Source: Escherichia coli (GTDB lineage Bacteria > Pseudomonadota > Gammaproteobacteria > Enterobacterales > Enterobacteriaceae). Taken from it: DNA of 64,000 nucleotides. The translations under genes were made by a program, and so were the position numbers. Position 1 is the first letter of the stretch. Each line of letters opens with the position of its first letter. The stretch lies in NCBI RefSeq assembly GCF_013122565.1, contig NZ_CP053258.1; one strand, 5' to 3'. The notes below the pieces were generated by a model. That model had not been told where the DNA came from. It did no database searches and saw only the letters and a program-made list of their open reading frames with translations. Positions 20,921 through 37,992 of this stretch are shown here, piece after piece.

Positions 20921-22168
<1,248 letters not shown>

Positions 22169-22175
22169 TTGAATG

Positions 22176-22287
<112 letters not shown>

Positions 22288-22308
22288 GTGCTCCATTGGC
22301 AAATGTGT

Positions 22309-22635
22309 TTAATGGCGGTGCCCATGTCCGCGGCCTTTTCCGCGATGATCGTCACGATCGCGCCAGCCTTCACGATAGCCACGCTCATACGCTTTACGCT
22401 TATCCCAGCCACGGTGGTAGCCATTATCATGACGCCACCAGCGGTTTTTACGCCATTCATAATTGCGATGCCAGTAGTCACGGTCGCGCCAGTGACCACC
22501 GTCCCAGTAATTACCGTAATGATCGCGATCGCCAATTTGTAATTTGATTGATGGCAGTAGGGTGATTTCACCTGCGTTTGCCGCAAGCGGGGTAAATGCC
22601 ATCAGGGCGGCCGCCAGAAACAGTGACCTGAACAT
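22309..22635 (-). CDS. ypeC: Secreted DUF2502-family protein YpeC (His/Arg/Trp-rich)
   Basis: 108-aa ORF with signal peptide [21 protein letters not shown] and low-complexity [18 protein letters not shown]...GHGHRH. Confidence 0.85.
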
Positions 22636-22749
22636 TGTTATTCTCCTTCACGATCGAAGCCGTCAGCGGCCTGTTAACGCAATATTACGGGGAGGTAAAG
22701 CCCCGTATCATCGCCATAACTCTTAAATCATAAAGGAGAGCATTTTTTG

Positions 22750-24006
22750 CTAAACGTTATCGTGGGGTGGCTGTTGCTTCGGACGATTGACCATCATCAT
22801 CGGCTTACCTGCTAATAACAGCCATGCCGGAAGCATGACGATACAGAGCAGCGGTAGCAAGGTGGTATTGGGTACAACGACTGCCGCCATAAAAAGACTT
22901 AACCAGCCATCACGTGTTACCACCAGCACGATGCCGAGAATAGCGCAGGAAACGGTTATTGCCGCTGGAACGGCGGGTACGTGCTCATGCAGCATCAACC
23001 CTAATGCCACGCCGACAAACACTGCCGGGAAGATTCGTCCACCGCGAAAGCCACTGGCGGCAGCAACGACCAGGGCGGTAAGTTTAATTACCGCCAGCAA
23101 AAAGTAATCGCTGGTGCTGAAAGCCTGATTTGCCACCATCTGCTGCATCTCATCCAGTCCTTTAAACAGCGAAACCGGCCCACCAATAACCCCCAGAATA
23201 CCGAGAATAAATCCGCCAATACCCAGCACGAGCACCGGATTTTTCATTTGATGCATCATCGCGTGCAATCGTGGTAAGCACCATACGGCGACCATCCCTG
23301 CTGCGATGGCAATCGCCGCGACAATTGCACCGCTGAGAATATCGGTCATTTCCATCTGTCCGTAATGCGCAATGGGCAGTGAAAAATGAGGATGGAAAAA
23401 TAATCCGGTAGTAAGTGCACCAGCTGCTGCCGCCATTAACGGCGCAAAGAGACGATCCCATAGCGGAACTTCACTACTGCCATTTAAGGTTTGCGAAAAT
23501 ATCAACGCCGCCGCAACAGGTGTGCCAAACAGTGCGCCAATGGTTCCGGCAGAGGCTAAAATAGTCCACTCCATTCGGTTGACGCGCGGTAACAGACGAG
23601 CGCCAATGGCGACGGCAAGGGCGATATTGACGGTCATGATCGGATGTTCCGGCCCCAGGCTGACGCCGCCAGCAAGACCGAGAATTAATGCTACGATAAG
23701 TCCAGGTAGCGCAGAGGGCGGAACCGGTGCGCCGATCAGCGGTTCACAGGCGGGGTCTGGTCCGGCATGACCCTGGCTGAAACGGATAACCAACCCCACC
23801 GCAATACCCGTTAGCGTTAATACACCGATGATCCAGAGGGGTGAATCCTGGGCTATCCCCAGAGTTCCCGGCAGTCGTTGCCAGAGCAAATTCTGTAATA
23901 CCGAGGCGATTTTCATCACCACAATCAGAATAAGACTGGACGCAATCCCAATTGCCACGGCGGGGAGCGATAATAACAACATGGTTCTGGCTCGCGGATG
24001 GAGCAT
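22750..24006 (-). CDS. yfeO: ClC-family voltage-gated chloride channel-like transporter
   Basis: 418-aa polytopic membrane ORF, Gly/Ala-rich ClC-type helices. Confidence 0.85.
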
Positions 24007-24209
24007 GTTCTATTCCTTATGCGGGGTCAGATACTTAGTTTGCCCAGCTTGCAAAAAGGCATCGCTGCAATTGGTGCTGAAACGATAAAGTAATTGTGTG
24101 ACCCAGATCGATATTTACAGGGAGCCTGCCTTTCCGGCGTTGTTGTTATGCCCCCAGGTATTTACAGTGTGAGAAAGAATTATTTTGACTTTAGCGGAGC
24201 AGTTGAAGA

Positions 24210-25175
24210 ATGACAAAGTATGCATTAGTCGGTGATGTGGGCGGCACCAACGCACGTCTTGCTCTGTGTGATATTGCCAGTGGTGAAATCTCGCAGGCTA
24301 AGACCTATTCAGGGCTTGATTACCCCAGCCTCGAAGCGGTCATTCGCGTTTATCTTGAAGAACATAAGGTCGAGGTGAAAGACGGCTGTATTGCCATCGC
24401 TTGCCCGATTACCGGAGACTGGGTGGCAATGACCAACCATACCTGGGCGTTCTCAATTGCCGAAATGAAAAAGAATCTCGGTTTTAGCCATCTGGAAATT
24501 ATTAACGATTTTACCGCTGTATCGATGGCGATCCCGATGCTGAAAAAAGAGCATCTGATTCAGTTTGGTGGCGCAGAACCGGTAGAAGGTAAGCCTATTG
24601 CGGTTTACGGTGCCGGAACGGGGCTTGGGGTTGCGCATCTGGTCCATGTCGATAAGCGTTGGGTAAGCTTGCCAGGCGAAGGCGGTCACGTTGATTTTGC
24701 GCCGAATAGTGAAGAAGAGGCCATTATCCTCGAAATATTGCGTGCGGAAATTGGTCATGTTTCGGCGGAACGTGTGCTTTCTGGCCCAGGACTGGTGAAT
24801 TTGTATCGCGCAATTGTTAAAGCCGACAACCGCCTGCCAGAAAATCTCAAGCCAAAAGATATTACCGAACGCGCGCTGGCTGACAGCTGCACCGATTGCC
24901 GCCGTGCGTTGTCGCTGTTTTGCGTCATTATGGGCCGTTTTGGCGGCAATCTGGCGCTCAATCTCGGGACATTTGGCGGCGTGTTTATTGCGGGCGGTAT
25001 CGTGCCGCGCTTCCTTGAGTTCTTCAAAGCCTCTGGTTTCCGTGCCGCATTTGAAGATAAAGGGCGCTTTAAAGAATATGTCCATGATATTCCGGTGTAT
25101 CTCATCGTCCATGACAATCCGGGTCTTCTCGGTTCCGGTGCACATTTACGCCAGACCTTAGGTCACATTCTGTAA
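24210..25175 (+). CDS. glk: Glucokinase
   Basis: 321-aa [24 protein letters not shown]... (ROK/glucokinase ATP-binding motif). Confidence 0.96.
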
Positions 25176-25393
25176 ATCCTTCCTGTTATATCGGGAGATA
25201 ACTCTCCCGATAATCTTTTAAATCATACAGTTAATTCAATTTTTCTTTGTGTCCCCTCACAAGGCCGACCTGCGTCACACTTCCGTACAGCGGGATTAAT
25301 TCTCCAGTAAATGCATTATTTGTCTGGTAACGGCGATTTGTTTTGCACGTTCATAATTTCACTCGTCAACTATCACTGAACGAGGAATTAACG

Positions 25394-25720
25394 ATGAGTA
25401 AGAAACTGATTGCCTTATGTGCCTGCCCGATGGGCCTGGCTCACACTTTTATGGCCGCTCAGGCGCTGGAAGAAGCAGCGGTAGAAGCCGGTTATGAAGT
25501 GAAAATTGAAACCCAGGGCGCGGACGGTATCCAGAATCGCCTGACGGCGCAGGATATCGCCGAAGCGACAATCATCATCCACTCCGTGGCAGTTACCCCG
25601 GAAGATAACGAGCGTTTCGAATCACGCGACGTTTATGAAATCACTTTGCAGGACGCAATTAAAAACGCTGCGGGCATCATCAAAGAAATCGAAGAGATGA
25701 TTGCCTCTGAACAACAGTAA
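25394..25720 (+). CDS. fryB: PTS fructose-like IIB component
   Basis: ORF 25343-25720; start placed at MSKKLIALCACPMGLAHTFMAAQ (IIB Cys phosphorylation site). Confidence 0.88.
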   Translation: MSKKLIALCACPMGLAHTFMAAQALEEAAVEAGYEVKIETQGADGIQNRLTAQDIAEATIIIHSVAVTPEDNERFESRDVYEITLQDAIKNAAGIIKEIEEMIASEQQ

Positions 25721-25741
25721 TATTCGACAGGGATAATTGTT

Positions 25742-26989
25742 ATGGCCATTAAAAAACGCAGTGCAACCGTTGTGCCTGGCGCATCCGGTGCGGCAGCGGC
25801 AGTTAAGAATCCGCAGGCCTCTAAAAGCAGCTTCTGGGGTGAACTCCCGCAGCATGTGATGTCAGGGATTTCACGCATGGTGCCGACCTTAATTATGGGC
25901 GGTGTGATCCTCGCTTTCAGCCAGTTGATTGCTTATAGCTGGCTTAAAATTCCTGCTGATATCGGCATCATGGATGCTCTTAATAGCGGAAAATTCTCCG
26001 GTTTCGACCTCTCCTTACTGAAATTTGCCTGGCTGTCGCAGTCCTTCGGCGGCGTGTTGTTTGGTTTTGCCATTCCGATGTTTGCTGCTTTTGTGGCGAA
26101 CTCTATCGGTGGCAAATTGGCGTTCCCGGCTGGTTTTATCGGCGGGTTGATGTCTACCCAGCCGACGCAACTGCTGAACTTCGATCCCAGCACTATGCAA
26201 TGGGCGACCTCTTCGCCGGTGCCGTCCACCTTCATTGGTGCCCTGATTATTTCTATCGTTGCTGGTTACCTTGTGAAGTGGATGAACCAGAAAATCCAGT
26301 TACCGGATTTCCTGTTAGCGTTCAAAACCACATTTTTGCTACCGATTCTTTCCGCCATTTTTGTCATGCTGGCGATGTACTACGTCATTACCCCATTTGG
26401 TGGCTGGATCAACGGCGGTATCCGTACCGTGCTGACTGCCGCAGGTGAGAAGGGCGCGCTAATGTATGCGATGGGGATCGCCGCGGCGACAGCAATCGAC
26501 CTTGGTGGACCGATCAACAAAGCCGCAGGTTTCGTTGCCTTCAGCTTTACCACTGACCACGTATTACCGGTCACCGCACGTTCTATCGCTATCGTTATTC
26601 CGCCGATTGGTCTGGGGCTGGCGACCATTATTGACCGTCGTTTAACCGGCAAACGCCTGTTCAATGCTCAGCTTTATCCGCAGGGTAAGACCGCGATGTT
26701 CCTGGCGTTTATGGGGATCAGTGAGGGTGCGATTCCGTTTGCGCTGGAAAGCCCCATCACCGCCATTCCGTCGTATATGGTCGGCGCGATTGTCGGCTCA
26801 ACCGCCGCTGTCTGGCTGGGCGCAGTGCAATGGTTCCCGGAGTCCGCTATCTGGGCATGGCCGCTGGTCACTAACCTTGGCGTCTATATGGCGGGGATCG
26901 CGCTGGGGGCAATCATTACAGCGCTGATGGTGGTGTTCCTGCGTCTGATGATGTTCCGCAAAGGCAAATTGTTAATCGATAGCCTGTAA
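25742..26989 (+). CDS. fryC: PTS fructose-like IIC permease component
   Basis: 415-aa polytopic membrane ORF downstream of fryB. Confidence 0.88.
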
Positions 26990-27003
26990 GAAGGAAAATC
27001 CAG

Positions 27004-28089
27004 ATGACATTACTCGCTTCGCTGCGCGACTGGCTTAAGGCGCAACAACTGGATGCGGTGCTTCTCTCATCACGGCAGAACAAACAGCCGCATCTGGGGA
27101 TCTCCACCGGATCAGGCTATGTGCTGATTAGCCGTGAAAGTGCGCACATTCTGGTGGATTCGCGATATTACGCGGATGTGGAAGCCCGCACGCAAGGCTA
27201 CCAGCTGCATTTGCTTGACGCGACGCACACGCTTGCAACCATCGTCAATCAAATCATTGCCGATGAACAGATACAGACGCTCGGTTTTGAAGGTCAGCAG
27301 GTGAGTTGGGAAACCGCGCACCGCTGGCAGTCTGAACTCAATGCGAAACTGGTTAGCGCCACGCCGGATGTGCTGCGGCAAATCAAAACGCCAGAGGAGG
27401 TGGAGAAAATCCGCCTTGCCTGTGGGATTGCCGATCGCGGTGCAGAGCATATTCGCCGCTTTATTCAGGCGGGGATGAGCGAGCGCGAGATAGCCGCTGA
27501 ACTGGAGTGGTTTATGCGCCAGCAGGGCGCAGAAAAAGCCTCTTTTGACACCATTGTCGCCAGCGGCTGGCGTGGGGCGCTACCGCACGGCAAAGCCAGC
27601 GACAAGATTGTTGCAGCGGGCGAGTTTGTCACTCTCGATTTCGGTGCGCTCTATCAGGGCTACTGCTCTGATATGACGCGCACCTTGCTGGTGAATGGCG
27701 AAGGGGTGAGCGCCGAATCTCATCCGCTGTTTAACGTCTATCAGATTGTTTTGCAGGCACAGCTTGCGGCAATCTCTGCAATTCGCCCCGGCGTGCGCTG
27801 CCAGCAGGTTGACGACGCCGCGCGCCGGGTGATTACCGAGGCAGGTTTTAGCGACTATTTTGGTCATAACACCGGTCATGCTATCGGCATTGAAGTCCAT
27901 GAAGATCCGCGTTTTTCACCGCGGGATACCACGACGCTACAGCCAGGCATGTTACTGACCGTGGAGCCGGGGATTTATTTGCCAGGGCAAGGGGGCGTGC
28001 GCATCGAAGATGTTGTGCTGGTCACCCCGCAAGGCGCAGAAGTGCTCTACGCCATGCCGAAAACAGTGTTGCTCACGGGAGAGGCATAA
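27004..28089 (+). CDS. ypdF: Xaa-Pro aminopeptidase (M24 family)
   Basis: 361-aa ORF with M24 metal-ligand motifs ([19 protein letters not shown]). Confidence 0.88.
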
Positions 28090-29126
28090 TGGATTTATCG
28101 CTATTAAAAGCGTTGAGCGAGGCAGATGCGATCGCCTCCTCGGAACAGGAAGTGCGGCAGATCCTGCTGGAAGAAGCGGATCGCCTGCAAAAAGAAGTGC
28201 GATTTGATGGTCTGGGATCGGTGCTGATCCGCCTCAATGAATCGACAGGTCCGAAGGTGATGATCTGTGCGCATATGGACGAAGTGGGATTTATGGTGCG
28301 CAGCATCTCCCGCGAAGGGGCGATTGATGTGCTGCCGGTTGGCAACGTACGCATGGCTGCCCGCCAGCTGCAGCCGGTGCGCATCACCACCCGTGAAGAG
28401 TGCAAAATTCCAGGCCTGCTTGACGGCGACCGGCAGGGGAATGACGTCAGCGCCATGCGCGTGGATATTGGCGCGCGCTCGTATGACGAAGTGATGCAGG
28501 CGGGAATTCGTCCAGGCGATCGCGTCACGTTTGATACTACTTTTCAGGTTCTCCCTCACCAGCGGGTGATGGGGAAAGCCTTTGATGACCGCCTCGGTTG
28601 CTACCTGCTGGTGACGTTACTGCGCGAACTACACAGCGCTGAACTGCCTGCGGAAGTGTGGCTGGTGGCCAGTTCCAGCGAAGAGGTGGGGTTACGCGGC
28701 GGGCAAACTGCCACCCGCGCGGTGTCGCCGGACGTCGCCATTGTGCTTGATACCGCCTGCTGGGCGAAAAACTTTGATTATGGCGCGGCTAACCATCGCC
28801 AGATTGGTAACGGGCCGATGCTGGTGTTAAGCGATAAATCGCTGATTGCGCCGCCAAAACTTACCGCGTGGATTGAAACCGTGGCGGCAGAAATTGGCGT
28901 GCCGTTGCAGGCGGATATGTTCAGCAACGGCGGCACGGACGGCGGGGCGGTGCACTTAACCGGCACCGGCGTGCCCACGGTGGTGATGGGGCCAGCAACC
29001 CGCCACGGACATTGCGCCGCATCGATTGCCGACTGCCGTGACATTTTGCAGATGCAGCAGCTTTTATCTGCCCTTATTCAACGTCTTACGCGTGAGACGG
29101 TTGTTCAACTGACGGATTTCAGATGA
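28089..29126 (+). CDS. ypdE: M42-family aminopeptidase
   Basis: 345-aa ORF, start overlaps the ypdF stop; M42/FrvX-like. Confidence 0.88.
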
Positions 29127-29150
29127 TCTCCTGATTAACCCGGAGCGGTT

Positions 29151-31646
29151 ATGTTAACGATTCAATTTCTCTGTCCTTTGCCTAACGGTCTTCATGCCCG
29201 TCCGGCGTGGGAACTTAAAGAACAGTGCAGCCAGTGGCAAAGCGAAATCACCTTCATCAACCATCGCCAGAACGCAAAGGCAGATGCGAAAAGCTCGCTG
29301 GCGCTGATTGGCACCGGCACCTTATTTAATGACAGTTGCAGCCTGAACATTAGCGGCAGCGATGAAGAGCAGGCGCGGCGCGTGCTGGAAGAGTACATCC
29401 AGGTGCGCTTTATCGACAGCGACAGCATCCAGCCAACGCAGGCAGAACTGACGGCGCATCCGCTGCCGCGTTCATTAAGCCGCCTGAACCCGGATTTACT
29501 GTACGGCAACGTGCTGGCAAGCGGCGTCGGCGTGGGGACGCTGACCCTGTTACAGAGTGACAGCCTCGACAGTTATCGGGCGATCCCCGCCAGTGCGCAA
29601 GATTCCACCCGGCTGGAGCACAGCCTGGCAACGCTTGCCGAGCAACTGAACCAGCAATTGCGTGAGCGTGACGGCGAAAGCAAAACTATCCTCAGCGCCC
29701 ATTTGTCGCTGATTCAGGATGATGAATTTGCAGGCAATATCCGTCGCCTGATGACAGAACAGCATCAGGGGCTGGGGGCGGCGATCATCAGCAATATGGA
29801 GCAGGTTTGTGACAAGCTTTCTGCCTCTGCCAGCGATTATCTGCGCGAGCGGGTTAGCGACATTCGCGATATCAGCGAACAGTTGCTGCATATCACCTGG
29901 CCGGAACTGAAGCCGCGCAACAATCTGGTGCTTGAAAAACCGACCATTCTGGTGGCTGAAGATTTAACCCCAAGCCAGTTTTTGAGCCTGGATTTAAAAA
30001 ATCTTGCGGGCATGATTCTGGAGAAAACCGGGCGCACCTCGCATACACTGATTCTGGCCCGCGCCTCGGCGATCCCGGTACTGAGCGGCCTGCCGCTGGA
30101 TGCGATTGCCCGTTATGCCGGGCAACCGGCGGTGCTTGACGCCCAGTGCGGCGTGCTGGCGATTAACCCGAATGACGCGGTGAGCGGTTATTATCAGGTC
30201 GCGCAGACGCTGGCGGATAAACGCCAAAAACAACAGGCGCAGGCTGCCGCGCAGCTGGCTTATTCCCGTGATAACAAGCGTATTGATATCGCGGCGAATA
30301 TCGGCACCGCTCTGGAAGCGCCAGGCGCGTTTGCCAACGGCGCGGAAGGCGTTGGACTGTTCCGTACTGAAATGCTGTATATGGATCGCGACAGCGCGCC
30401 GGACGAGCAGGAGCAATTTGAAGCCTACCAGCAGGTGCTACTGGCGGCGGGCGACAAGCCGATTATCTTCCGCACAATGGACATCGGCGGCGATAAAAGC
30501 ATTCCTTACCTCAACATTCCCCAGGAAGAGAACCCGTTCCTCGGCTATCGCGCGGTACGTATTTACCCGGAATTTGCTGGCCTGTTCCGCACTCAACTGC
30601 GGGCTATTTTGCGTGCTGCCAGTTTCGGCAACGCCCAGTTGATGATCCCTATGGTTCACAGCCTCGATCAGATCTTATGGGTGAAGGGCGAGATCCAAAA
30701 AGCGATCGTTGAGCTTAAGCGCGATGGCCTGCGTCATGCAGAGACGATTACGCTGGGTATCATGGTGGAAGTGCCGTCGGTGTGCTACATCATCGACCAC
30801 TTCTGCGATGAGGTCGATTTCTTCAGTATCGGCTCCAACGATATGACCCAGTATCTGTATGCGGTCGATCGTAATAACCCGCGCGTATCGCCGCTGTATA
30901 ACCCGATTACGCCATCGTTCCTGCGCATGTTACAGCAGATAGTTACCACTGCGCATCAGCGGGGCAAATGGGTAGGCATTTGCGGTGAACTGGGCGGTGA
31001 AAGCCGTTATCTGCCGCTACTGCTTGGGCTGGGCCTGGATGAGCTGAGTATGAGTAGCCCACGCATTCCGGCGGTGAAAAGCCAGCTTCGTCAACTGGAT
31101 AGCGAGGCGTGTCGGGAACTGGCGCGTCAGGCATGTGAATGCCGCAGCGCGCAGGAAATTGAAGCGTTACTCACCGCCTTTACGCCGGAAGAAGACATTC
31201 GCCCATTACTGGCGCTGGAGAATATCTTTGTTGATCAGTCCTTTAGCAATAAAGAGCAGGCGATTCAGTTCCTGTGCGGTAACCTCGGCGTTAACGGGCG
31301 CACTGAACATCCGTTCGAGCTGGAAGAAGATGTCTGGCAGCGGGAAGAGATAGTCACCACTGGCGTTGGTTTTGGCGTGGCGATCCCGCACACCAAATCG
31401 CAGTGGATCCGTCATTCCAGTATCAGCATTGCCCGGCTGGCGAAACCGGTTGACTGGCAGTCAGAAATGGGCGAAGTCGAACTGGTGATCATGCTGACGC
31501 TGGGTGCTAACGAAGGTATGAATCATGTGAAAGTCTTCTCGCAGCTGGCGCGTAAACTGGTGAATAAAAACTTCCGCCAGTCGTTGTTTGCCGCGCAAGA
31601 TGCACAAAGTATCCTGACGCTGCTGGAAACAGAATTAACCTTCTGA
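29151..31646 (+). CDS. fryA: Multiphosphoryl transfer protein (HPr-like / enzyme I-like / IIA-like fusion) of the fry PTS
   Basis: 831-aa ORF; N-terminal HPr-like LPNGLHARPA, central EI PEP-utilising domain, C-terminal IIA(Fru)-like. Confidence 0.9.
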   Translation: MLTIQFLCPLPNGLHARPAWELKEQCSQWQSEITFINHRQNAKADAKSSLALIGTGTLFNDSCSLNISGSDEEQARRVLEEYIQVRFIDSDSIQPTQAELTAHPLPRSLSRLNPDLLYGNVLASGVGVGTLTLLQSDSLDSYRAIPASAQDSTRLEHSLATLAEQLNQQLRERDGESKTILSAHLSLIQDDEFAGNIRRLMTEQHQGLGAAIISNMEQVCDKLSASASDYLRERVSDIRDISEQLLHITWPELKPRNNLVLEKPTILVAEDLTPSQFLSLDLKNLAGMILEKTGRTSHTLILARASAIPVLSGLPLDAIARYAGQPAVLDAQCGVLAINPNDAVSGYYQVAQTLADKRQKQQAQAAAQLAYSRDNKRIDIAANIGTALEAPGAFANGAEGVGLFRTEMLYMDRDSAPDEQEQFEAYQQVLLAAGDKPIIFRTMDIGGDKSIPYLNIPQEENPFLGYRAVRIYPEFAGLFRTQLRAILRAASFGNAQLMIPMVHSLDQILWVKGEIQKAIVELKRDGLRHAETITLGIMVEVPSVCYIIDHFCDEVDFFSIGSNDMTQYLYAVDRNNPRVSPLYNPITPSFLRMLQQIVTTAHQRGKWVGICGELGGESRYLPLLLGLGLDELSMSSPRIPAVKSQLRQLDSEACRELARQACECRSAQEIEALLTAFTPEEDIRPLLALENIFVDQSFSNKEQAIQFLCGNLGVNGRTEHPFELEEDVWQREEIVTTGVGFGVAIPHTKSQWIRHSSISIARLAKPVDWQSEMGEVELVIMLTLGANEGMNHVKVFSQLARKLVNKNFRQSLFAAQDAQSILTLLETELTF

Positions 31647-31648
31647 CG

Positions 31649-32506
31649 TTAGCCCTGAAAACGGGCGCTGTACTCTCCCGGCGTCAGACCAAACTGACGC
31701 CGGAAAACGCGACAAAAATAGTCGCTATCCGGAAAACCGCAACGCTGTGCCACTTCATGAATTGACAGATGATATTTCTGCAAAATCATCCTCGCCTTCG
31801 CCATTCGCACCCAACGCACATACTCGATAAAACGCATCGTTCCATGCTGAGCAAACAGTTTTGACAGATGATTGGGCGTGATATTAAAAAACTGCGCCAC
31901 GCTCTCGCGGGTGAGCGGCTGGGCATAATTATCCTGAACCCAGTTACAAATGCTGTGATAGAGAAAATCGCCGCGCGGCTGCGAATTGCCCGGCGGCATA
32001 TTCACCACGTTACGGCAAAGATGCAGCAAACTTAACACCAGCGGCTGAATGATATTTTGCTCCAGCGGCGAACGGCTAAGATGGGTGAGGGCGGTAAGCA
32101 TCGCTTCACCTTCACCGCGTTGCAGGCTGGGCAGCTGGATCTGGCGAGCAGGATGCAACAACGACGTGGTGCGGCTATCGTAAAATGATAACCCAAGCCA
32201 GGTCGGTGAGAACACCAGGCTTAACAGCATCACCGGTTTGTTGTTGACCGGTAAATTAGCCGCGCGCGCCGGAATAAACAGCATTTCTCCTTCCACCAAA
32301 CGTTGCTGCTTTGCTTCCAGCAGATTGCCGTATTCGCCGCGCAGCACGATATCCAGACGGGGAAAATCAATACATAAACTGCCCACCGGCAACGAGGCAG
32401 GCTGGCTGGCAAACCAGACGCGCCCCAGTAGTTGCGGGTTAAGCACCAGGCCGCTGAACAGATCGGCGAAAAATTGTTGATCGGCGGGCAAGCCTGGTGC
32501 TTTCAT
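31649..32506 (-). CDS. ypdC: AraC-family transcriptional regulator
   Basis: 285-aa ORF with C-terminal AraC HTH (IHEVAQRCGFPDSDYFCRVFRRQFGLTPGEY). Confidence 0.9.
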   Translation of the reverse strand: MKAPGLPADQQFFADLFSGLVLNPQLLGRVWFASQPASLPVGSLCIDFPRLDIVLRGEYGNLLEAKQQRLVEGEMLFIPARAANLPVNNKPVMLLSLVFSPTWLGLSFYDSRTTSLLHPARQIQLPSLQRGEGEAMLTALTHLSRSPLEQNIIQPLVLSLLHLCRNVVNMPPGNSQPRGDFLYHSICNWVQDNYAQPLTRESVAQFFNITPNHLSKLFAQHGTMRFIEYVRWVRMAKARMILQKYHLSIHEVAQRCGFPDSDYFCRVFRRQFGLTPGEYSARFQG

Positions 32507-32518
32507 GAAAGTTCCCGA

Positions 32519-33271
32519 TTAAAGATGCATTAACTGGCGGAATTCTTTAACTTTGCTGCGGCTGACCGGCACTTCAAAATCCAGATCTTTCAGCCGCAGA
32601 ATGTAGGTGTTATTAAACCACGGTTCGATCTCGCGGATTTTGTTCAGATTGACACAAAATGAGCGATGGCAGCGGAAAAAATGCGACGGCGGCAGTTTGC
32701 TGCAAAATTCGGTAATGTTCATCGGCATTACGTAGGATTCACGCCGCGTATAAACAAAGGTCATTTTCTCGTGCGCTTCGGCGTAATAGATATCGTTAAT
32801 GGGGGTGACGATTATTCGCTCATCTTTCACCAGATTTATGGTGTCATTCTCACGCGTTACCGTCGCGGCAGGCGTGCTGCTGGTCTGCTGTTGTTGCCAG
32901 GCCGCTTCCAGTTTTTGCAGCATCCCGGTAATGCGTGACTCCTGATACGGTTTGAGAATGTAGTCAAACGCCTCCAGTTCAAACGCTTCTACCGCATGTT
33001 CTTTCCACGCGGTGATAAACACAATAAACGGTTTATGGGCGAACTGGCTGATGTTTTGCGCCAGCAACACACCATCCAGCGACGGAATATTGATATCCAG
33101 AAAAATGGCGTCGACGCGGTTATGCTGCAAAAACTTCAACACGTCCAGACCGTCGTCAAAGGTGCCGACAATCTCCATCTGGCTGTGCTCTTTAATTAGC
33201 CAGCTCAGTTCCTGTTGTGCCAGGAATTCGTCTTCAACAATGATGACTTTCACAATATCACTCCGGCTCAA
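32519..33271 (-). CDS. ypdB: LytTR-family response regulator (pyruvate-responsive two-component system)
   Basis: 250-aa ORF with receiver domain then LytTR domain; ATG overlaps the ypdA stop (ATGA); K-12 may be annotated from an internal GTG at 33253. Confidence 0.9.
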
Positions 33272-34965
33272 AGCAATAACGTAGCCTGTGAGGCGACTGG
33301 GGTGCGTTGGTTAGGAATGTAAAACGCAATTTCCGTTCCTGGTTCCAGGCGGCGGATATGCAGCCCCTCGCCATACAATAACTTCACGCGATGATGGACA
33401 TTCAGCAGGCCAATTTTATTGCCCGGCATTTCATTCGCTTCGACCCGCTCAATCACCTTTGGATCGATGCCGTGCCCGGTATCCCGCACCGCAATGCGTA
33501 CCCGATTACCACACTCTGCAACGCTGATGGTGACAACGCCTTTACCTTTGCAAGGCTGAATACCGTGGACAATGGCGTTTTCCACCAACGGCTGGATCAG
33601 CAGGCTGGGAATGCAGCAATTCACCTCTTCATCAATATCATAGATAACCGTCAGCTTGTCGCCAAAGCGGGCCTGCTCAATGGCAATATAGTCTTTAATT
33701 TGATACAGCTCTTTTTTGATATCGATTTGCTCATCGTCTTTTAATTCAATGTTATAGCGCAGATAGCGCGACAAATTAAAGATCAGCTGGCGAGCAGTAT
33801 CCGGATTCAGACGGATCGACGATGAAATAGCGTTCAGAGCGTTAAACAGAAAATGGGGATTAATTTTGCTTTGCAGGGCGCGAAGCTCTGCCTTATTTGC
33901 CATTTCACGTAGCTGCTCGGCGCGTGAAACCTCCAGTTGGGTGGAGATGATTTGCGACAGACCGACCGCCATTTCCTGTAATGACGAGGTGATCTGATGC
34001 GCGTGGCAGTAGTAAATTTTCAGCGTTCCGGTCACAACGCCTTTCTCCCACAATGGGATCACCAGCATGGAATGAATCTCTGGTGTGCGGTGGGCTTCAT
34101 CATTGTTTTTAATGATTATTTTTCCGTAATTCATCGCCTGACGGGTAGTCGGGCTAATGAAGTCATCGCCATTCTGATAGTTATGTTCACCTACGCCAAC
34201 ATAGGCCAGCACATGATCGGTATTAGTAATCGCCACCGCATCGGCGTGAATATCATCGCGGATAATTTCGCAGACCTTGCGTAATGACTCGCTATTGACA
34301 TGGCGAAACAGCGGCAGCGTTTTGTTGGCGATATCCAGCGCCAGCTTGGCCTGCCGCGCGGCGCTGGCCTCTTTTTCGCCCTCAACGCTTTGCACCAGAA
34401 GCACAATAAAGCCGATACAGACGCTGCCGAGGATCATTGGAATGCCGATTTTAGAGACGATATCGATCCCCAACGCGGTAGTTGGTGCCCAGACAATCAC
34501 CAGAATCATGGTCAACGTTTCGCACAACATGCCGCCGAGAATACCGACGCGCCAGCGCTGCGCTTTGGGGATTTTCAGGTTGATCCAGCCCGATATACAA
34601 CCCGCCAGAATGCTGGTGATAAAGCAGGGGATCGCCGTCACGCCGCCGATATCAATTAAATAACGGTGAATACCCGCAATCACGCCGGTAATGATGCCGA
34701 CCCACGGGCCAAACAGAATCCCGCCTGACATCACCGCGATAATACGTACGTTCACCAGCGAGCCTTCTACGGGGACGCCGGACCAGGTGCTGAACAGGGC
34801 GAACAGCGAGAAAATGGCGGTAACAGCAAGCAACTCTTTTGGGGAGTGTGCCGACTTGTGCAACAGCTCGCGAAACAGGCGGATACGGATGAGAAAGAAC
34901 AGGCAGATAAGCATTAACGCTGCCCGATCGAAGACCGCCAGCAGCATGTTGAATATTTCGTGCAC
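33268..34965 (-). CDS. ypdA: LytS-type sensor histidine kinase (5TM receptor-GAF-HisKA-ATPase)
   Basis: 565-aa ORF; N-terminal TM helices, [19 protein letters not shown]-box, ATPase G-boxes. Confidence 0.92.
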
Positions 34966-35341
34966 GGGTGACTCTGAATAAGGATTAAACCTCTATGATA
35001 GGTAACCTGAAGGCTGATGACCAGCAGGCCGTTTTTGAGGAAAAACCACAATTTTAAAAGGGGATTGAAAGATAAATGGTGTATTAGCAATGCATCTCTT
35101 GATAATGCACATCTGGGTGGTAAATTTATTGAAATTATAATGTTAATAAAATGAGTGGTATTTTTCTTGTTAGCGTAGATAAATTTCCTGTTTTTAAAGC
35201 GGAGTTCCTCATTTAAAGCCATTAACAAAAATGTTCTAAAACGCTGGACAGACAGAAATTAATCAGGCTATTTTCAAAACAGCCACCATCGTGGCAGCGT
35301 CGCTCGGACGGTCCGGGCGCTAACGTTAATCTGAGGAAATT

Positions 35342-36580
35342 ATGGCTGACACTCGCCCTGAACGTCGCTTTACGCGCATTGATCGTCTCCCGCCCTACGT
35401 TTTTAACATTACCGCTGAACTGAAAATGGCTGCGCGTCGGCGCGGCGAAGATATTATCGATTTCAGTATGGGTAACCCGGACGGTGCCACTCCACCGCAT
35501 ATCGTCGAAAAATTATGTACGGTGGCCCAGCGCCCGGACACGCATGGTTACTCCACGTCACGCGGCATTCCGCGGTTACGTCGCGCCATTTCTCGCTGGT
35601 ATCAGGATCGATACGACGTTGAGATCGACCCGGAATCAGAAGCCATCGTCACCATTGGTTCGAAAGAGGGGCTGGCACACCTGATGCTGGCGACGCTGGA
35701 TCATGGTGACACGGTGCTGGTGCCGAATCCAAGCTACCCCATTCATATTTACGGCGCGGTGATTGCCGGGGCTCAGGTACGCTCAGTGCCGCTGGTGGAA
35801 GGTGTCGATTTCTTCAACGAACTGGAACGCGCCATTCGTGAAAGTTATCCGAAACCGAAGATGATGATCCTCGGCTTCCCGTCGAACCCCACCGCGCAAT
35901 GCGTGGAGCTGGAGTTCTTCGAAAAGGTTGTGGCGCTGGCGAAACGCTACGATGTGCTGGTGGTCCATGACCTGGCCTATGCAGACATCGTCTACGATGG
36001 CTGGAAAGCGCCGTCAATCATGCAGGTGCCAGGTGCACGCGATGTGGCGGTCGAGTTCTTTACGCTGTCAAAAAGCTACAACATGGCGGGCTGGCGTATC
36101 GGCTTTATGGTTGGCAACAAAACGCTGGTCAGTGCGCTGGCACGTATTAAAAGCTATCACGATTACGGCACCTTTACGCCGTTGCAGGTGGCAGCGATTG
36201 CGGCGCTGGAGGGCGATCAACAGTGCGTGCGCGATATTGCCGAACAGTACAAACGCCGCCGTGATGTACTGGTAAAAGGGCTGCATGAAGCGGGCTGGAT
36301 GGTCGAAATGCCGAAGGCTTCGATGTATGTCTGGGCGAAAATCCCTGAACCTTATGCTGCCATGGGCTCGCTGGAATTTGCCAAAAAGCTGCTTAACGAA
36401 GCGAAGGTCTGTGTCTCTCCGGGGATTGGCTTTGGCGACTACGGCGACACGCATGTTCGCTTTGCACTGATTGAAAACCGCGACCGTATTCGTCAGGCGA
36501 TTCGTGGGATTAAAGCGATGTTCCGTGCCGATGGTTTACTACCCGCCAGCACCAAACATATTCACGAAAACGCGGAATAA
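35342..36580 (+). CDS. alaC: Glutamate-pyruvate aminotransferase (PLP-dependent)
   Basis: 412-aa [31 protein letters not shown]..., class I aminotransferase with [10 protein letters not shown] Lys motif. Confidence 0.93.
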
Positions 36581-36600
36581 ACACCGACCTCAAAAATGCA

Positions 36601-36628
36601 AACAGGAGCCTGATGGCTCCTGTTTTTC
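36601..36628 (+). terminator. Rho-independent terminator after alaC
   Basis: aacaggagcc-tgat-ggctcctgtt hairpin followed by tttt. Confidence 0.7.
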
Positions 36629-36644
36629 ATTGCACAGTTTGCTT

Positions 36645-36716
36645 TTAGATCATCAGGGCAAAAGTACCGGCCCAAACGATGACCATAAAAGAAATGCCCA
36701 TAAAGAAATATTTCAC
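36645..36716 (-). CDS. ypdK: Small membrane protein YpdK (23 aa)
   Basis: Below the ORF-track cutoff; reverse complement reads GTG AAA TAT TTC ... = MKYFFMGISFMVIVWAGTFALMI*. Confidence 0.7.
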   Translation of the reverse strand: MKYFFMGISFMVIVWAGTFALMI

Positions 36717-37071
36717 TTTACATCTCTCCGCGTAATTACTGTTACGCCTGAATGACTTCATTACACCTGATACAGTGAGTTGACACCGGGCAAAACGACC
36801 TTAAAAGTCCTGTATTTTACCGTGGGCATCACCCCAGAATTCTGAGCTAAACTGCTCCAGACGGCGCTAATGTACGCCTAAAATTGAAACGAGACAATAG
36901 GCATTTTCTTATTTACTTTTAGTAACTTACAGGTGTCTCATATCGGCGACAGTTTAATTTCTGACGGTAATAATTAGAGATTCAGCGAAGGAAAAAACCT
37001 TAAGAAAAAAGCCATAAAAACCATGGGGTTATTATGGCTGATTTGAGGAGGGAAAGAGTCAGAGCAGTTTG

Positions 37072-37992
37072 TTAAATGTATAGCGACGATTCTCCCACCG
37101 GGCGCGTTTTAAAGCGACGGTGGATCCAGAGGTACTGCTCCGGTGCGCGCATGATCTCTTTTTCGATAATCTTGTTCATATAGGCAGCGGCTTGATTTTC
37201 ATCTGCCGGGTAGCCTTCCATCTCTGGGGTGATGAACAAACGATATCCGCTGTAATCCGCTTTTCTTACCATCGTTACGGTCAACATGGCTGCGCCAGAG
37301 AGACGGGAAAGGACATACGTACCATTGGTTGTGGCGACATTTTCCACCGCAAAGAACGGTGCGAAGGAGCTGCCTTTACGACCATAATCCTGATCGGGAG
37401 CAAACCATACCGCTTCACCTTTCTTCAGTGCACTGACAATGCCGCGCAGATTATTTCTGCCGATCATCGCTTTGTTAGAACGCATGCGACCACGGGTCTG
37501 CACCCATTCCATCAGCTGATTATTATGTGGACGATAGGTAGCCATCATTGGTTGGCACAGTCCCATCACGCGACCGCCCAGTTCCAGCGACATAAAATGG
37601 ACGCCGACAACCATTACGCCGCGATTTTGCATTTGTGCGCGTTTAAGGTTATCCAACCCTTCAACATCAAACCATTTACGTACGCGACTGTCGGGCCAGA
37701 ACCACGCCATGCCGGTTTCTACCAGCGCCATGCCGAGTGAACGAAAGTTTTCGGCAATCATCTTCTCGCGTTCTTCCGCAGAATGCTGCGGGAAACAAAG
37801 TTCCAGGTTTTTACGGGCGATAGATTCACGACGTTTCAGGAATGGTCGCGCCATTGCGCCAATACGCGTGCCGAGAAAGCAGAGAACAGGGTATGGAAGT
37901 TGTACCCAAAGCCAGAGTACACCAAGCCCAAACCATGTGAGCCAGTAGCGAGGATGTAGAAACTCGCGGGAAAATTTGCAATGTGGAAACAT
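37072..37992 (-). CDS. lpxP: Lipid A biosynthesis palmitoleoyltransferase (cold-induced late acyltransferase)
   Basis: ORF 37072-38058; start placed at MFPHCKFSREFLHPRYW; LpxL/LpxM/LpxP family. Confidence 0.9.
   Translation of the reverse strand: MFPHCKFSREFLHPRYWLTWFGLGVLWLWVQLPYPVLCFLGTRIGAMARPFLKRRESIARKNLELCFPQHSAEEREKMIAENFRSLGMALVETGMAWFWPDSRVRKWFDVEGLDNLKRAQMQNRGVMVVGVHFMSLELGGRVMGLCQPMMATYRPHNNQLMEWVQTRGRMRSNKAMIGRNNLRGIVSALKKGEAVWFAPDQDYGRKGSSFAPFFAVENVATTNGTYVLSRLSGAAMLTVTMVRKADYSGYRLFITPEMEGYPADENQAAAYMNKIIEKEIMRAPEQYLWIHRRFKTRPVGESSLYI

What the first reader, a model, noticed from the sequence alone, without database searches (positions are those of the whole stretch)
25394..31646. 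Cryptic fry PTS operon with two embedded aminopeptidase genes, next to the ypdABC regulatory cluster
fryB-fryC-ypdF-ypdE-fryA is co-oriented with short or overlapping junctions (the ypdE start overlaps the ypdF stop). A sugar PTS (IIB, IIC, HPr-EI-IIA fusion) is thus co-transcribed with an M24 Xaa-Pro peptidase and an M42 peptidase, and sits immediately beside the LytS/LytTR pyruvate-sensing two-component system and an AraC regulator. The true substrate (glycated or amino-sugar conjugates?) is not known to me.
Basis: partly seen in the sequence, partly recalled or inferred. Interest (0 to 1): 0.3.

Follow-up and report, generated by a model that had tools for sequence, protein, structure and literature searches.

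The report
Known fry sugar-transport operon with peptidases
This is the already catalogued but functionally unsolved E. coli fryBC-ypdFE-fryA operon; comparison with other bacteria shows that its odd pairing of a sugar importer with two peptide-trimming enzymes is conserved across phyla, and suggests it imports a mannose-type sugar attached to a short peptide.

Summary
Window 25394-31646 carries intact, co-oriented fryB, fryC, ypdF (M24), ypdE (M42) and fryA (HPr-EI-IIA). Junctions are 21, 14, -1 and 24 nt, with no internal terminator or promoter signal above background. ypdC (AraC family) lies convergent, 2 nt from the fryA stop, followed by ypdB and ypdA. The locus is annotated identically in K-12 and found in 5424 of 5426 complete E. 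coli genomes, so it is not new.

The comparative result adds something. The YpdE clade of M42 enzymes is monophyletic and is PTS-linked in every locus examined. With 4 kb or more of flank, M24 is present in 19 of 20 clade loci against 0 of 47 for other M42 genes.

In Firmicutes and Coriobacteriia the operon is PRD regulator-EIIA/B/C-M24-M42-PatB C-S lyase, sometimes followed by manA. The same FryC-type EIIC (57-64% identical to E. coli FryC) also occurs with a GH38 alpha-mannosidase in place of the peptidases.

Best reading: a self-contained PTS for a mannoside with an amino-acid or peptide aglycone, trimmed in the cytoplasm by YpdF and YpdE and probably activated by YpdC. The adjacent ypdAB and alaC genes look incidental. 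The substrate remains inferred, not shown.

The parts
25189..25212 (+). Terminator-like hairpin after glk; marks the upstream boundary of the fry transcription unit
   Evidence: 10-bp stem, 5 G-C pairs, followed by a T-rich tail; the glk stop is at 25175.
25267..25331 (+). Conserved upstream regulatory block, containing two direct repeats TCTCCAGTAA (25301-25310) and TGTCTGGTAA (25321-25330) spaced 20 bp start to start; proposed activator (YpdC?) site abutting the -35 position
   Evidence: Alignment A2 of 8 Enterobacterales upstream regions shows invariant columns through this block, even in Hafnia. The two-repeat pattern occurs once in the 64-kb window against 0 expected, but the pattern was derived from this sequence. 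The function is inferred.
25352..25357 (+). Candidate -10 hexamer CATAAT with no good -35 hexamer (an activator-dependent promoter is inferred)
   Evidence: CATAAT/CATACT is conserved in all 8 aligned species. The promoter scan found no canonical sigma-70 site here. No transcription start data were available.
25394..25720 (+). fryB, PTS EIIB (108 aa); phosphorylatable Cys in the CACPMGLAHT motif
   Evidence: 100% amino-acid identity to K-12.
25742..26989 (+). fryC, PTS EIIC (415 aa), Fru-family; the membrane permease
   Evidence: It is 57-64% identical to Firmicute EIICs that sit in M24-M42-PatB operons or GH38 operons, and 24% identical to the E. coli FrvB EIIC domain.
27004..28089 (+). ypdF, M24B Xaa-Pro-type aminopeptidase (361 aa)
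   Evidence: solved structure 5CNX 'Aminopeptidase YpdF'. Metal ligands D212, D223, H292, E321, E335 are invariant across 24 operon-linked homologues.
28089..29126 (+). ypdE, M42 (TET-type) aminopeptidase (345 aa); its start codon overlaps the ypdF stop by 1 nt
   Evidence: solved structure 1YLO. H62, D166, E198, E199, D221 and H308 are invariant. Clade-specific residues are R71, K106, S196, S197, R237.
29151..31646 (+). fryA, fused HPr-Enzyme I-EIIA(Fru/Mtl type) phosphoryl-transfer protein (831 aa)
   Evidence: The phospho-transfer motifs are intact: GLHARPA (His15), GRTSHTLILAR, ICGELGG, VAIPH.
31649..32506 (-). ypdC, AraC-family regulator, convergent with fryA (2-nt gap between the stops); proposed dedicated regulator of the fry operon
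   Evidence: full-length similarity to RhaR, residues 47-281. It lies convergent directly after fryA in every Enterobacterales-type locus with enough right flank: L011-L015, L017, L018, L095. No binding was seen in ChIP-exo under the conditions tested (PMC8464067).
32519..33253 (-). ypdB (pyrR), LytTR response regulator; a neighbour, probably not part of the fry system
   Evidence: Absent next to fry-ypdC in L017, L018 and L095.
33268..34965 (-). ypdA (pyrS), LytS-type histidine kinase; a neighbour, probably not part of the fry system

Best explanation
The region is the known E. coli operon fryB-fryC-ypdF-ypdE-fryA with its convergent regulator gene ypdC.

Shown: five intact genes under purifying selection, arranged as one tightly packed unit. 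They encode a complete, self-contained phosphotransferase chain (FryA = HPr + Enzyme I + EIIA; FryB = EIIB; FryC = EIIC) and two catalytically competent metallo-aminopeptidases.

Inferred mechanism: FryC imports, and the FryA-FryB relay phosphorylates, a small glycoside whose sugar is most likely mannose and whose aglycone is an amino acid or short peptide with a free N-terminus. O-mannosyl Ser/Thr peptides from yeast, fungal, actinobacterial or host glycoproteins are the leading candidates. In the cytoplasm YpdE (broad aminopeptidase) and YpdF (Xaa-Pro bonds) trim the peptide.

In Firmicutes a PatB-family PLP lyase encoded in the same operon would then release the sugar phosphate from the remaining amino acid, and manA would feed mannose-6-phosphate into glycolysis. 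In Enterobacterales that last step is not encoded in the operon and is unknown.

Transcription probably starts about 30 nt upstream of fryB, from a promoter lacking a -35 element that needs an activator, most plausibly YpdC with the substrate or a derivative as inducer.
For: Locus identity and integrity.

Functional coupling of PTS and peptidases:
- YpdE-like M42 proteins scoring 204 bits or more form a monophyletic set of 29 loci.
- With 4 kb or more of flank, an EIIC is present in 20/20 and an M24 in 19/20. For other M42 loci the figures are 10/47 and 0/47 (Fisher p = 8e-16 for M24).
- The linkage holds for two unrelated EIIC types, Fru-like and Lac-like.
- Sampled from the EIIC side, 6 of 9 contexts again show M24-M42.
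- All three K-12 M42 paralogues sit in PTS operons (PMC3511314 states that E. coli has three M42 enzymes).

Mannose as the sugar:
- A manA gene follows PatB in L019, L096 and L097.
- The other 3 of the 9 FryC-type EIIC contexts (L094, L098, L099) carry a GH38 alpha-mannosidase instead of the peptidases. L094's GH38 scores 602 bits to the mannosylglycerate hydrolase model; the other two rest on their Pfam GH38 domains.
- This is the mngA/mngB arrangement, in which the GH38 enzyme cleaves a 6-phospho-alpha-mannoside (PMC2815779).
- E. coli FryC is 60-64% identical to these GH38-linked EIICs.

Regulator: ypdC co-travels with fry where ypdAB does not. A conserved repeat block abuts the missing -35.

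Phenotypes consistent with activity in complex or host media:
- UTI89 delta-ypdE has a competitive index of 0.297 in mouse bladder (PMC8767336).
- An in-frame fryA deletion improves growth on LB plates after prolonged culture (PMC5364489).
Against: - No substrate, transport or induction experiment exists for Fry. Every step after 'these genes are co-encoded' is inference from gene neighbourhood.
- The E. coli operon lacks PatB, manA and GH38, so release of the sugar phosphate is unexplained there.
- manA was seen in only 3 of about 9 complete Firmicute Fru-type operons.
- The Lac-type operons give no hint about their sugar.
- PLP-dependent beta-elimination of an O-glycosyl serine has not, to my knowledge, been described.
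- PTS permeases are not known to carry peptide-bearing glycosides.
- YpdC gave no ChIP-exo peaks under the conditions tested.
- The EIIC residues that distinguish peptidase-type from GH38-type operons do not clearly place E. coli FryC (6 against 2, 4 neither, of 12 columns).
Confidence: 0.5

Rival explanations
1. The system takes up glycated (Amadori/Heyns) amino acids or peptides such as fructosyl-amino acids. The peptidases free the glycated residue, which is then deglycated.
For: PTS or permease systems for fructoselysine, glucoselysine and fructose-asparagine exist in Enterobacteriaceae (established knowledge: frl, gfr, fra loci). FryBC is annotated 'fructose-like'. The LB phenotype of the fryA deletion would fit heat-glycated peptones.
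Against: None of the operons whose gene lists were read contains a SIS-type deglycase, an oxidase or a kinase between the regulator and the last enzyme. The recurrent extra enzymes are a PatB C-S lyase (TIGR04350), manA and, in sister operons, GH38 alpha-mannosidase, none of which acts on fructosamines. An N-alkylated N-terminus would block aminopeptidases. The 'fructose' label rests on a borderline family score (157.6 against 157.55).
Confidence: 0.1
2. YpdE and YpdF do not work as peptidases here. They act as amidohydrolases or deacylases on a phosphorylated sugar derivative, for example an N-aminoacyl or N-acyl amino sugar, releasing the sugar phosphate directly.
For: The M24 fold includes non-peptidase hydrolases such as creatinase, ectoine hydrolase and DddP (weak hits). 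M42 proteins were long annotated as glucanases (PMC3511314). frvABXR has an M42 enzyme as its only catabolic enzyme. The YpdE clade has its own active-site-adjacent signature (SSEE instead of VQEE) plus R71, K106 and R237, which could bind an anionic group.
Against: YpdE and YpdF were characterised as genuine aminopeptidases (Zheng et al. 2005, cited in PMC3511314; recalled, the paper was not readable here). All peptidase metal ligands are conserved. Two different peptidases plus a lyase suggests stepwise trimming of a heterogeneous peptide rather than cleavage of one amide bond.
Confidence: 0.15
3. There is no shared substrate. The peptidase genes are general cytoplasmic peptidases that happen to be embedded in a silent, decaying PTS operon.
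For: The operon is not known to be induced in laboratory media. YpdC shows no binding. A rare 27-aa in-frame deletion allele of ypdE exists.
Against: dN/dS is 0.00-0.09 for all five genes. The locus is present in 5424/5426 genomes. Synteny of EIIB-EIIC-M24-M42 extends from Enterobacterales to Clostridia, Staphylococcus, Solobacterium and Coriobacteriia. ypdF and ypdE overlap by one base. Mutant phenotypes exist.
Confidence: 0.05
4. Fry is mainly a regulatory phosphorelay, like the PtsP-PtsO-PtsN system. FryA senses the PEP/pyruvate state and, with the neighbouring pyruvate-sensing YpdAB, tunes peptide catabolism.
For: FryA has its own Enzyme I and HPr domains, as regulatory PTS branches do. 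The locus lies next to ypdAB, annotated pyrSR, pyruvate-responsive (PMC5552118 abstract).
Against: A full EIIB and a 10-plus-TM EIIC permease are present and highly conserved. ypdAB is not linked to fry in Hafnia, Superficieibacter or L095. Firmicute versions use PRD regulators typical of substrate-inducible catabolic PTS operons.
Confidence: 0.05

Closest known systems
E. coli mngA/mngB (PTS for 2-O-alpha-mannosyl-D-glycerate plus GH38 6-phospho-alpha-mannosidase)
   Same: A Fru-family PTS imports and phosphorylates a mannoside carrying a small non-sugar aglycone, and a cytoplasmic enzyme then frees mannose-6-phosphate. FryC-type EIICs occur in exactly this arrangement with GH38 in L094, L098 and L099.
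   Different: Fry has two aminopeptidases instead of the glycosidase, separate EIIB and EIIC proteins, and its own HPr-EI-EIIA protein. FryC is only distantly related to MngA (102 bits).
E. coli frvABXR and sgcXBCQAER cryptic PTS operons
   Same: Uncharacterised PTS operons that each embed an M42 family gene, frvX or sgcX.
   Different: They have no M24 partner and use different EII families and regulators. FrvX and SgcX fall outside the YpdE clade (185 and 129 bits against 204 or more).
Firmicute/Coriobacteriia operons PRD regulator-EIIA-EIIB-EIIC-M24-M42-PatB (uncharacterised; found here)
   Same: They carry orthologous M42 (about 37-49% identity) and M24 (35-45% identity). The Fru-type versions also have EIIB/EIIC about 60-70% identical, in the same order EIIB-EIIC-M24-M42.
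   Different: They use a PRD-domain regulator and the general EI/HPr instead of YpdC and FryA. They add a PatB-family lyase, sometimes manA or an RDD membrane protein. A second version uses an unrelated Lac-type EIIC.
Fructoselysine/glucoselysine and fructose-asparagine systems (frl, gfr, fra)
   Same: Uptake of a sugar-amino acid conjugate followed by intracellular cleavage; gfr uses a PTS.
   Different: Those rely on kinases and SIS-type deglycases, not peptidases. No such gene is present in the fry-type operons whose gene lists were read.
Staphylococcus hominis thioalcohol pathway (peptide transporter, dipeptidase, PatB C-S lyase)
   Same: Sequential peptidase trimming followed by a PatB-family PLP lyase acting on the remaining substituted amino acid (PMC7385124 and PMC11742315, abstracts).
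   Different: No sugar and no PTS. The substituent is a thioether, and the genes are not in one operon with a transporter of this kind.
E. coli malXY
   Same: A PTS permease gene is paired with a PatB/MalY-family lyase of unknown physiological substrate (established knowledge).
   Different: Glucose-family EIICB; no peptidases.

Membership tests
PTS, fructose-mannitol (Fru) family Enzyme II | EIIB domain with an N-terminal phosphorylatable cysteine | tested here: met
   PF02302 71 bits, TIGR00829 92 bits (cut-off 76.85); Cys in the CACPMGLAHT motif.
PTS, fructose-mannitol (Fru) family Enzyme II | EIIC permease domain of the Fru type | tested here: met
   PF02378 53 bits (cut-off 30.7). TIGR01427 157.6 bits against a cut-off of 157.55, i.e. 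borderline. No equivalog model (FruA, FrwC, FrvB, MngA) is reached.
PTS, fructose-mannitol (Fru) family Enzyme II | PEP-dependent phosphorylation and transport of a defined sugar | not testable with these tools
   No experiment is reported; the substrate is stated as unknown in PMC5364489.
PTS general phosphoryl carriers (Enzyme I / HPr / EIIA) as a fused protein | HPr His15 motif, EI active-site His and Cys motifs, EIIA His | tested here: met
   GLHARPA at 13-19, GRTSHTLILAR, ICGELGG, VAIPH at 743-747. TIGR01417 506 bits (cut-off 341.7); PF00381, PF00359.
Peptidase family M42 (TET aminopeptidases) | Family profile match at equivalog level and the five metal-binding/catalytic residues | tested here: met
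   PF05343 286 bits; PRK09961 680 bits (cut-off 412). H62, D166, E198, E199, D221 and H308 are invariant. Matches PDB 1YLO at 7.7e-225.
Peptidase family M42 (TET aminopeptidases) | Dodecameric assembly and aminopeptidase activity | not testable with these tools
   PMC3511314 says YpdE activity was characterised previously and that it is dodecameric (unpublished data there).
Peptidase family M24B (Xaa-Pro peptidases) | Creatinase_N plus pita-bread catalytic domain with the D, D, H, E, E metal ligands | tested here: met
   PF00557 245 bits, PF01321 73 bits, PRK09795 815 bits (cut-off 393). D212, D223, H292, E321 and E335 are conserved in 24 homologues. PDB 5CNX.
AraC/XylS transcription regulators (YpdC) | C-terminal double helix-turn-helix (HTH_18/HTH_AraC) | tested here: met
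   PF12833 74 bits, PF00165 49 bits.
AraC/XylS transcription regulators (YpdC) | Binds and activates the adjacent catabolic promoter in response to the substrate | tested here: inconclusive
   Co-travels with fry in 8 of 8 loci with flank, and a conserved direct-repeat block lies at the -35 position. However, no ChIP-exo binding was seen and no experiment links it to fry.
Single operon (co-transcription of fryB through fryA) | Same strand, short or overlapping junctions, no internal terminator or promoter, conserved order | tested here: met
   Listed as one unit in PMC2731931. Transcript mapping was not available.
Amadori-product (glycated amino acid) utilisation systems | Deglycase (SIS domain) or fructosamine kinase/oxidase encoded with the transporter | tested here: not met
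   No such gene lies inside the fry-type operons whose gene lists were read.
Alpha-mannoside PTS systems (mngAB-like) | Cytoplasmic enzyme releasing mannose-6-phosphate (GH38) and/or manA encoded with the PTS | tested here: inconclusive
   Met in relatives: GH38 in L094, L098 and L099; manA in L019, L096 and L097. Not met in the E. coli operon itself.

The most novel reading that the evidence does not exclude
The fry operon and its Firmicute/Actinobacterial counterparts define an undescribed catabolic route. A PTS imports and phosphorylates O-mannosylated (or similarly glycosylated) amino acids or short peptides. M24 and M42 aminopeptidases trim them down to the glyco-amino acid. A PatB-family PLP lyase then removes the sugar phosphate by beta-elimination instead of glycoside hydrolysis. 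This would give M42 'TET' peptidases in bacteria a dedicated role in glycopeptide scavenging in the gut and urinary tract.
Probability: 0.2. Interest if true: 0.7.

Novelty: already known. Interest (0 to 1): 0.35.

Why it matters
FryABC is one of the few E. coli K-12 phosphotransferase systems with no known substrate. YpdE and YpdF are solved, biochemically characterised peptidases with no known physiological role. The locus is core to the species, and ypdE contributes to bladder colonisation in one study.

The comparative pattern found here turns 'unknown substrate' into a short list of testable compounds: mannosyl-Ser/Thr peptides and related mannosides. That pattern is a cross-phylum PTS + M24 + M42 module, a PatB lyase and manA as frequent partners, and GH38 alpha-mannosidase as the alternative partner of the same permease family. 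It also points to YpdC as the regulator to manipulate.

If confirmed, this would explain why all three E. coli M42 peptidases sit in PTS operons, and would add glycopeptides to the PTS substrate range.

Tried and rejected
1. alaC as a missing operon member. Firmicute operons carry an 'Aminotran_1_2' gene and alaC lies just beyond ypdA. However, the Firmicute gene is a PatB/MalY C-S lyase (TIGR04350, 321-369 bits) only 19-23% identical to AlaC. Rejected.

2. ypdAB as part of the system. It is absent beside fry-ypdC in Hafnia, Superficieibacter and L095. Treated as a neighbour.

3. Internal promoters or terminators. The counts equal shuffled expectation and none lies upstream of ypdF or ypdE. 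An RNAfold scan found only hairpins inside coding sequence.

4. Structured RNAs and repeats. There were no Rfam hits in 22000-38000, and only short chance repeats.

5. A common ypdE deletion allele. Many 318-aa clusters suggested a frequent 27-aa deletion. The deletion junction is present in only 7 of 5426 complete genomes, and the lower hit count for the 81-bp segment reflects divergence.

6. Extra catabolic genes in the flanks of Firmicute operons. These were housekeeping or unrelated genes, apart from manA and RDD.

7. EIIC residues discriminating peptidase-type from GH38-type operons. There were only 12 such columns, and E. coli matched 6, 2 and 4 (peptidase-type, GH38-type, neither), which is inconclusive.

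8. Literature. Ten searches found no paper on the PTS + M24 + M42 (+ PatB) module or on a Fry substrate. Zheng et al. 2005 could not be read.

9. A CRP site in the upstream region. The TGTGT-N4-TCACA spacing is wrong and the element is not conserved outside Escherichia.

Full report
**1. The observation**

The window between 25394 and 31646 contains five co-oriented ORFs on the + strand.
- fryB: PTS EIIB.
- fryC: PTS EIIC.
- ypdF: Creatinase_N + Peptidase_M24; NCBIfam equivalog PRK09795, 815 bits.
- ypdE: Peptidase_M42; PRK09961, 680 bits.
- fryA: HPr + the Enzyme I domains + EIIA_2.

The junctions are 21, 14, -1 and 24 nt. The ypdE ATG shares one base with the ypdF stop codon (TAATG), and every downstream gene has a Shine-Dalgarno-like element.

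On the opposite strand, ypdC (AraC family) ends 2 nt from the fryA stop. It is followed by ypdB (receiver + LytTR) and ypdA (5TM-LytS, GAF, histidine kinase). glk lies upstream and ends in a terminator-like hairpin at 25189-25212.

RefSeq annotation of a closely matching E. coli genome, and of K-12 MG1655, lists the same genes in the same order. In K-12 ypdA/ypdB are now named pyrS/pyrR.

The 6.25-kb segment matches 5424 of 5426 complete E. coli genomes at 95-99% identity. Against K-12, all genes are the same length with no internal stops. dN/dS is 0.00-0.09 for the five operon genes. The phospho-transfer motifs of FryA and FryB are intact. So the operon is 'cryptic' only in the sense of having no known inducer; it is not decaying.

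**2. One transcription unit?**

The consensus scans give as many promoter-like and terminator-like sites as shuffled sequence, and none lies upstream of ypdF or ypdE. [quoted passage not shown]

An alignment of the region upstream of fryB from eight Enterobacterales, including Hafnia, shows two conserved elements:
- a -10-like CATAAT at 25352-25357, with no recognisable -35 hexamer;
- directly upstream, a conserved block (25267-25331) containing two direct repeats, TCTCCAGTAA and TGTCTGGTAA, spaced 20 bp start to start and abutting the -35 position.

This is the layout of an activator-dependent promoter of the AraC/RhaS type. That reading is an inference. The repeat pattern is unique in the window, but it was derived from this very sequence.

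**3. Which neighbours belong to it?**

In every Enterobacterales-type locus with enough right flank, an AraC-family gene lies convergent directly after fryA. These loci are Escherichia coli, E. albertii, two Citrobacter, Pseudocitrobacter, Superficieibacter, Hafnia and one unassigned metagenome contig.

ypdAB and alaC are adjacent only in Escherichia, Citrobacter and Pseudocitrobacter. They are absent from the 21-kb loci of Superficieibacter and Hafnia and from L095. So ypdC travels with fry, and the pyruvate-sensing two-component system is most simply a neighbour. YpdC gave no ChIP-exo peaks under the conditions tested (PMC8464067), as expected for a regulator that lacks its inducer.

**4. 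Is the PTS-peptidase pairing meaningful?**

This is the core of the finding. A search of 1.84 billion representative proteins shows that YpdE orthologues (75% identity or more) are confined to Enterobacteriaceae. The next relatives are at about 44% identity. Those relatives also sit in PTS operons with an M24 gene.

A scan of one genome per GTDB species with an M42 alignment returned 80 loci. I annotated them by phmmer with the window proteins and with proteins from two of the distant operons. The results:
- Every M42 scoring 204 bits or more to YpdE (29 loci) is next to PTS genes, and these 29 form a monophyletic group in a neighbour-joining tree.
- Among loci with at least 4 kb on both sides, an EIIC is present in 20/20 and an M24 in 19/20.
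- For the remaining M42 genes the figures are 10/47 and 0/47 (Fisher p = 5e-10 and 8e-16).

The catalytic residues of both peptidases are invariant across the clade.

Two architectures occur outside Enterobacterales:
- Fru-type: PRD regulator-EIIA2-EIIB-EIIC-M24-M42-PatB. Found in Clostridia (Caproiciproducens, Hungatella, Lachnospiraceae, Enterocloster) and, from the EIIC-side sampling, in Staphylococcus equorum, Tissierellia, Solobacterium and Ruminococcaceae.
- Lac-type: PRD regulator-M42-EIIA(Lac)-EIIB-EIIC-M24-PatB, sometimes followed by an RDD-family gene. Found in Clostridium, Terrisporobacter, Faecalibacillus, Erysipelotrichales, Olsenella, Collinsella and Streptococcus cuniculi (the one locus without M24). 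A variant lacking PatB occurs in Vibrio marinisediminis.

The two EIIC types are unrelated in sequence. The conserved core is therefore the enzyme set, not a particular permease.

The 'aminotransferase' in these operons is a PatB/MalY-family C-S lyase (TIGR04350, 321-369 bits, cut-off 340). It is not an AlaC orthologue (19-23% identity), so my earlier idea that alaC belongs to the E. coli system was dropped.

All three M42 genes of K-12 (ypdE, frvX, sgcX) lie in PTS operons. PMC3511314 confirms that E. coli has three M42 enzymes. The linkage is ancient and specific.

**5. What is the sugar?**

I tested the association from the permease side as well. E. coli FryB and FryC are 71% and 62% identical to the EIIB and EIIC of a Firmicute-type operon. 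This EIIC family is widespread at 65-87% identity to that Firmicute-type EIIC. By contrast, E. coli FryC is only 24% identical to its own paralogue FrvB.

Nine contexts were sampled from this family:
- Six are M24-M42 operons (L091, L092, L093, L095, L096, L097).
- Three (L094, L098, L099) have the same PRD regulator-EIIA-EIIB-EIIC followed by a single GH38 alpha-mannosidase in place of the peptidases. L094's GH38 scores 602 bits to the E. coli mannosylglycerate hydrolase model; the other two rest on their Pfam GH38 domains.

The GH38 arrangement is that of mngA/mngB, in which the GH38 enzyme cleaves 2-O-(6-phospho-alpha-mannosyl)-glycerate into mannose-6-phosphate and glycerate (PMC2815779).

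In three of the peptidase-type operons (L019, L096, L097) a class I mannose-6-phosphate isomerase gene follows PatB. E. coli FryC is 60-64% identical to the GH38-linked permeases, the same as to the peptidase-linked ones. No operon whose gene list was read carries a deglycase, kinase or other sugar-phosphate enzyme between the regulator and the last enzyme.

The simplest reading is that this permease family carries mannosides, and that the product entering metabolism is mannose-6-phosphate. The nature of the aglycone would decide whether the operon carries a glycosidase or peptidases plus a lyase.

**6. Proposed mechanism**

Each step is marked as shown or inferred.
- Shown: a complete, autonomous phosphorelay (FryA, FryB) and a permease (FryC) are co-encoded with two active-site-intact aminopeptidases under one upstream regulatory region.
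- Inferred, moderate confidence: the cargo is a glycoside with an amino-acid or peptide aglycone bearing a free N-terminus. YpdE (broad specificity) and YpdF (Xaa-Pro bonds) trim it after uptake.
- Inferred, lower confidence: the sugar is mannose. O-mannosyl Ser/Thr peptides, which come from Ser/Thr/Pro-rich regions of yeast, fungal, actinobacterial and host glycoproteins, are the leading candidates.
- Inferred, lower confidence: in Firmicutes PatB frees the sugar phosphate from the last residue by PLP-dependent beta-elimination, giving pyruvate and ammonia. This parallels the dipeptidase-then-PatB order of the staphylococcal thioalcohol pathway (abstracts).

In E. coli the operon has neither PatB, manA nor GH38, so the last step is unassigned. 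MalY, MetC or MngB are guesses.

The YpdE clade differs from other M42 enzymes next to the catalytic glutamates (SSEE instead of VQEE). It also has three clade-specific basic residues, R71, K106 and R237. This is compatible with an anionic, phosphorylated ligand, but I could not place these residues in space.

Two published phenotypes are compatible with activity in complex or host media:
- A UTI89 delta-ypdE mutant is outcompeted in mouse bladder, with a competitive index of 0.297 (PMC8767336).
- An in-frame fryA deletion improves growth on LB plates after prolonged culture (PMC5364489).

**7. Rivals**

Disfavoured by the absence of any deglycase and by the mannose-related partners.
- A non-peptidase amidohydrolase role for YpdE and YpdF. 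It cannot be excluded, and it would fit frvABXR, where an M42 enzyme is the only catabolic enzyme.
- Accidental co-location, or decay. Contradicted by selection, synteny and the one-base gene overlap.
- A purely regulatory phosphorelay. Contradicted by the conserved permease and by the substrate-type PRD regulators in the relatives.

**8. Comparison with what is known, and novelty**

The locus itself is fully known: K-12 b2383-b2387. Both peptidases have solved structures, 1YLO and 5CNX. The enzymes were characterised in 2005 (cited in PMC3511314). The operon is listed as a unit in the literature.

In ten literature searches I found no report of a substrate, an inducer, or the cross-phylum PTS + M24 + M42 (+ PatB) module with its GH38 sister operons. 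The library covers only open-access papers, so this absence is not proof. I rate the feature 'already known'. It carries a useful, testable functional hypothesis attached to a long-standing orphan system. Interest: 0.35.

Noticed in passing
window 28296-28384 (ypdE codons 72-98): An in-frame 81-bp (27-aa) deletion allele of ypdE exists in public E. coli, Shigella and E. albertii sequences (318/319-aa clusters). The deleted segment is flanked by the 8-bp direct repeat GGTGCGCA. The window carries the full-length allele. The deletion junction is present in only 7 of 5426 complete genomes.
   Followed up: yes
window 24210-36580: Divergence from K-12 is very uneven along the locus: dS is 0.015 in ypdC, about 0.06 in glk and fryB, 0.14 in ypdF and 0.22 in alaC. 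No complete genome is more than 97.4% identical over the whole operon. This suggests a recombination mosaic or a divergent lineage.
   Followed up: partly
window 26000-31000: The operon is richer in G+C (54-59%) than its flanks (about 48-52%), peaking in ypdE. This is compatible with an old horizontal acquisition.
   Followed up: no
window 31644-31703: fryA and ypdC converge with only 2 nt between their stop codons and no terminator. A perfect 10-bp hairpin (CCGGCGTCAG...CTGACGCCGG) lies inside the 3' end of ypdC. Convergent transcription could make the two genes interfere with each other.
   Followed up: no
L003 4856-7824 and L004 3906-8652 (K-12 frv and sgc loci): All three M42 family genes of E. 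coli K-12 (ypdE, frvX, sgcX) are embedded in uncharacterised PTS operons of three different architectures.
   Followed up: partly
L017 14511-15425 (Superficieibacter) and L095 14246-15076: An alpha/beta-hydrolase gene (Abhydrolase_1 and S33 'serine aminopeptidase' Pfam hits in both; weak prolyl-aminopeptidase-family NCBIfam matches for L095) lies next to and co-oriented with ypdC in two Enterobacterales-type loci. It is not present in E. coli. It could be an additional enzyme of the pathway.
   Followed up: partly
L027 15363-16040, L029 15512-16153, L032 14586-15251, L034 10756-11358: In four loci the Lac-type M42/M24 operon is followed by an RDD-family membrane protein of unknown role (after PatB in L027, L029 and L034; after M24 in L032, where PatB lies upstream on the opposite strand).
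   Followed up: partly
L038, L046, L087 (Clostridium sp. Ade.TY, C. baratii, a Lachnospiraceae MAG): A different arrangement: two tandem M42 genes follow a Lac-type EIIB-EIIC, without any M24 gene. These M42 proteins fall outside the YpdE clade.
   Followed up: no
representative proteins P0139, P0146, P0156, P0159, P0160 and others: Proteins of about 700-790 aa show two M42-matching stretches, i.e. tandem-fused M42 domains.
   Followed up: no
L093 5467-6951 (Solobacterium): An ISL3-family transposase gene is inserted between the EIIB and EIIC genes of an otherwise complete PRD regulator-EIIA-EIIB-EIIC-M24-M42-PatB operon.
   Followed up: no
RefSeq annotation under H1-H8: NCBI's pipeline names fryA 'ptsP: phosphoenolpyruvate--protein phosphotransferase' in many E. 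coli genomes. This label belongs to a different Enzyme I paralogue and hides the HPr and EIIA domains.
   Followed up: no
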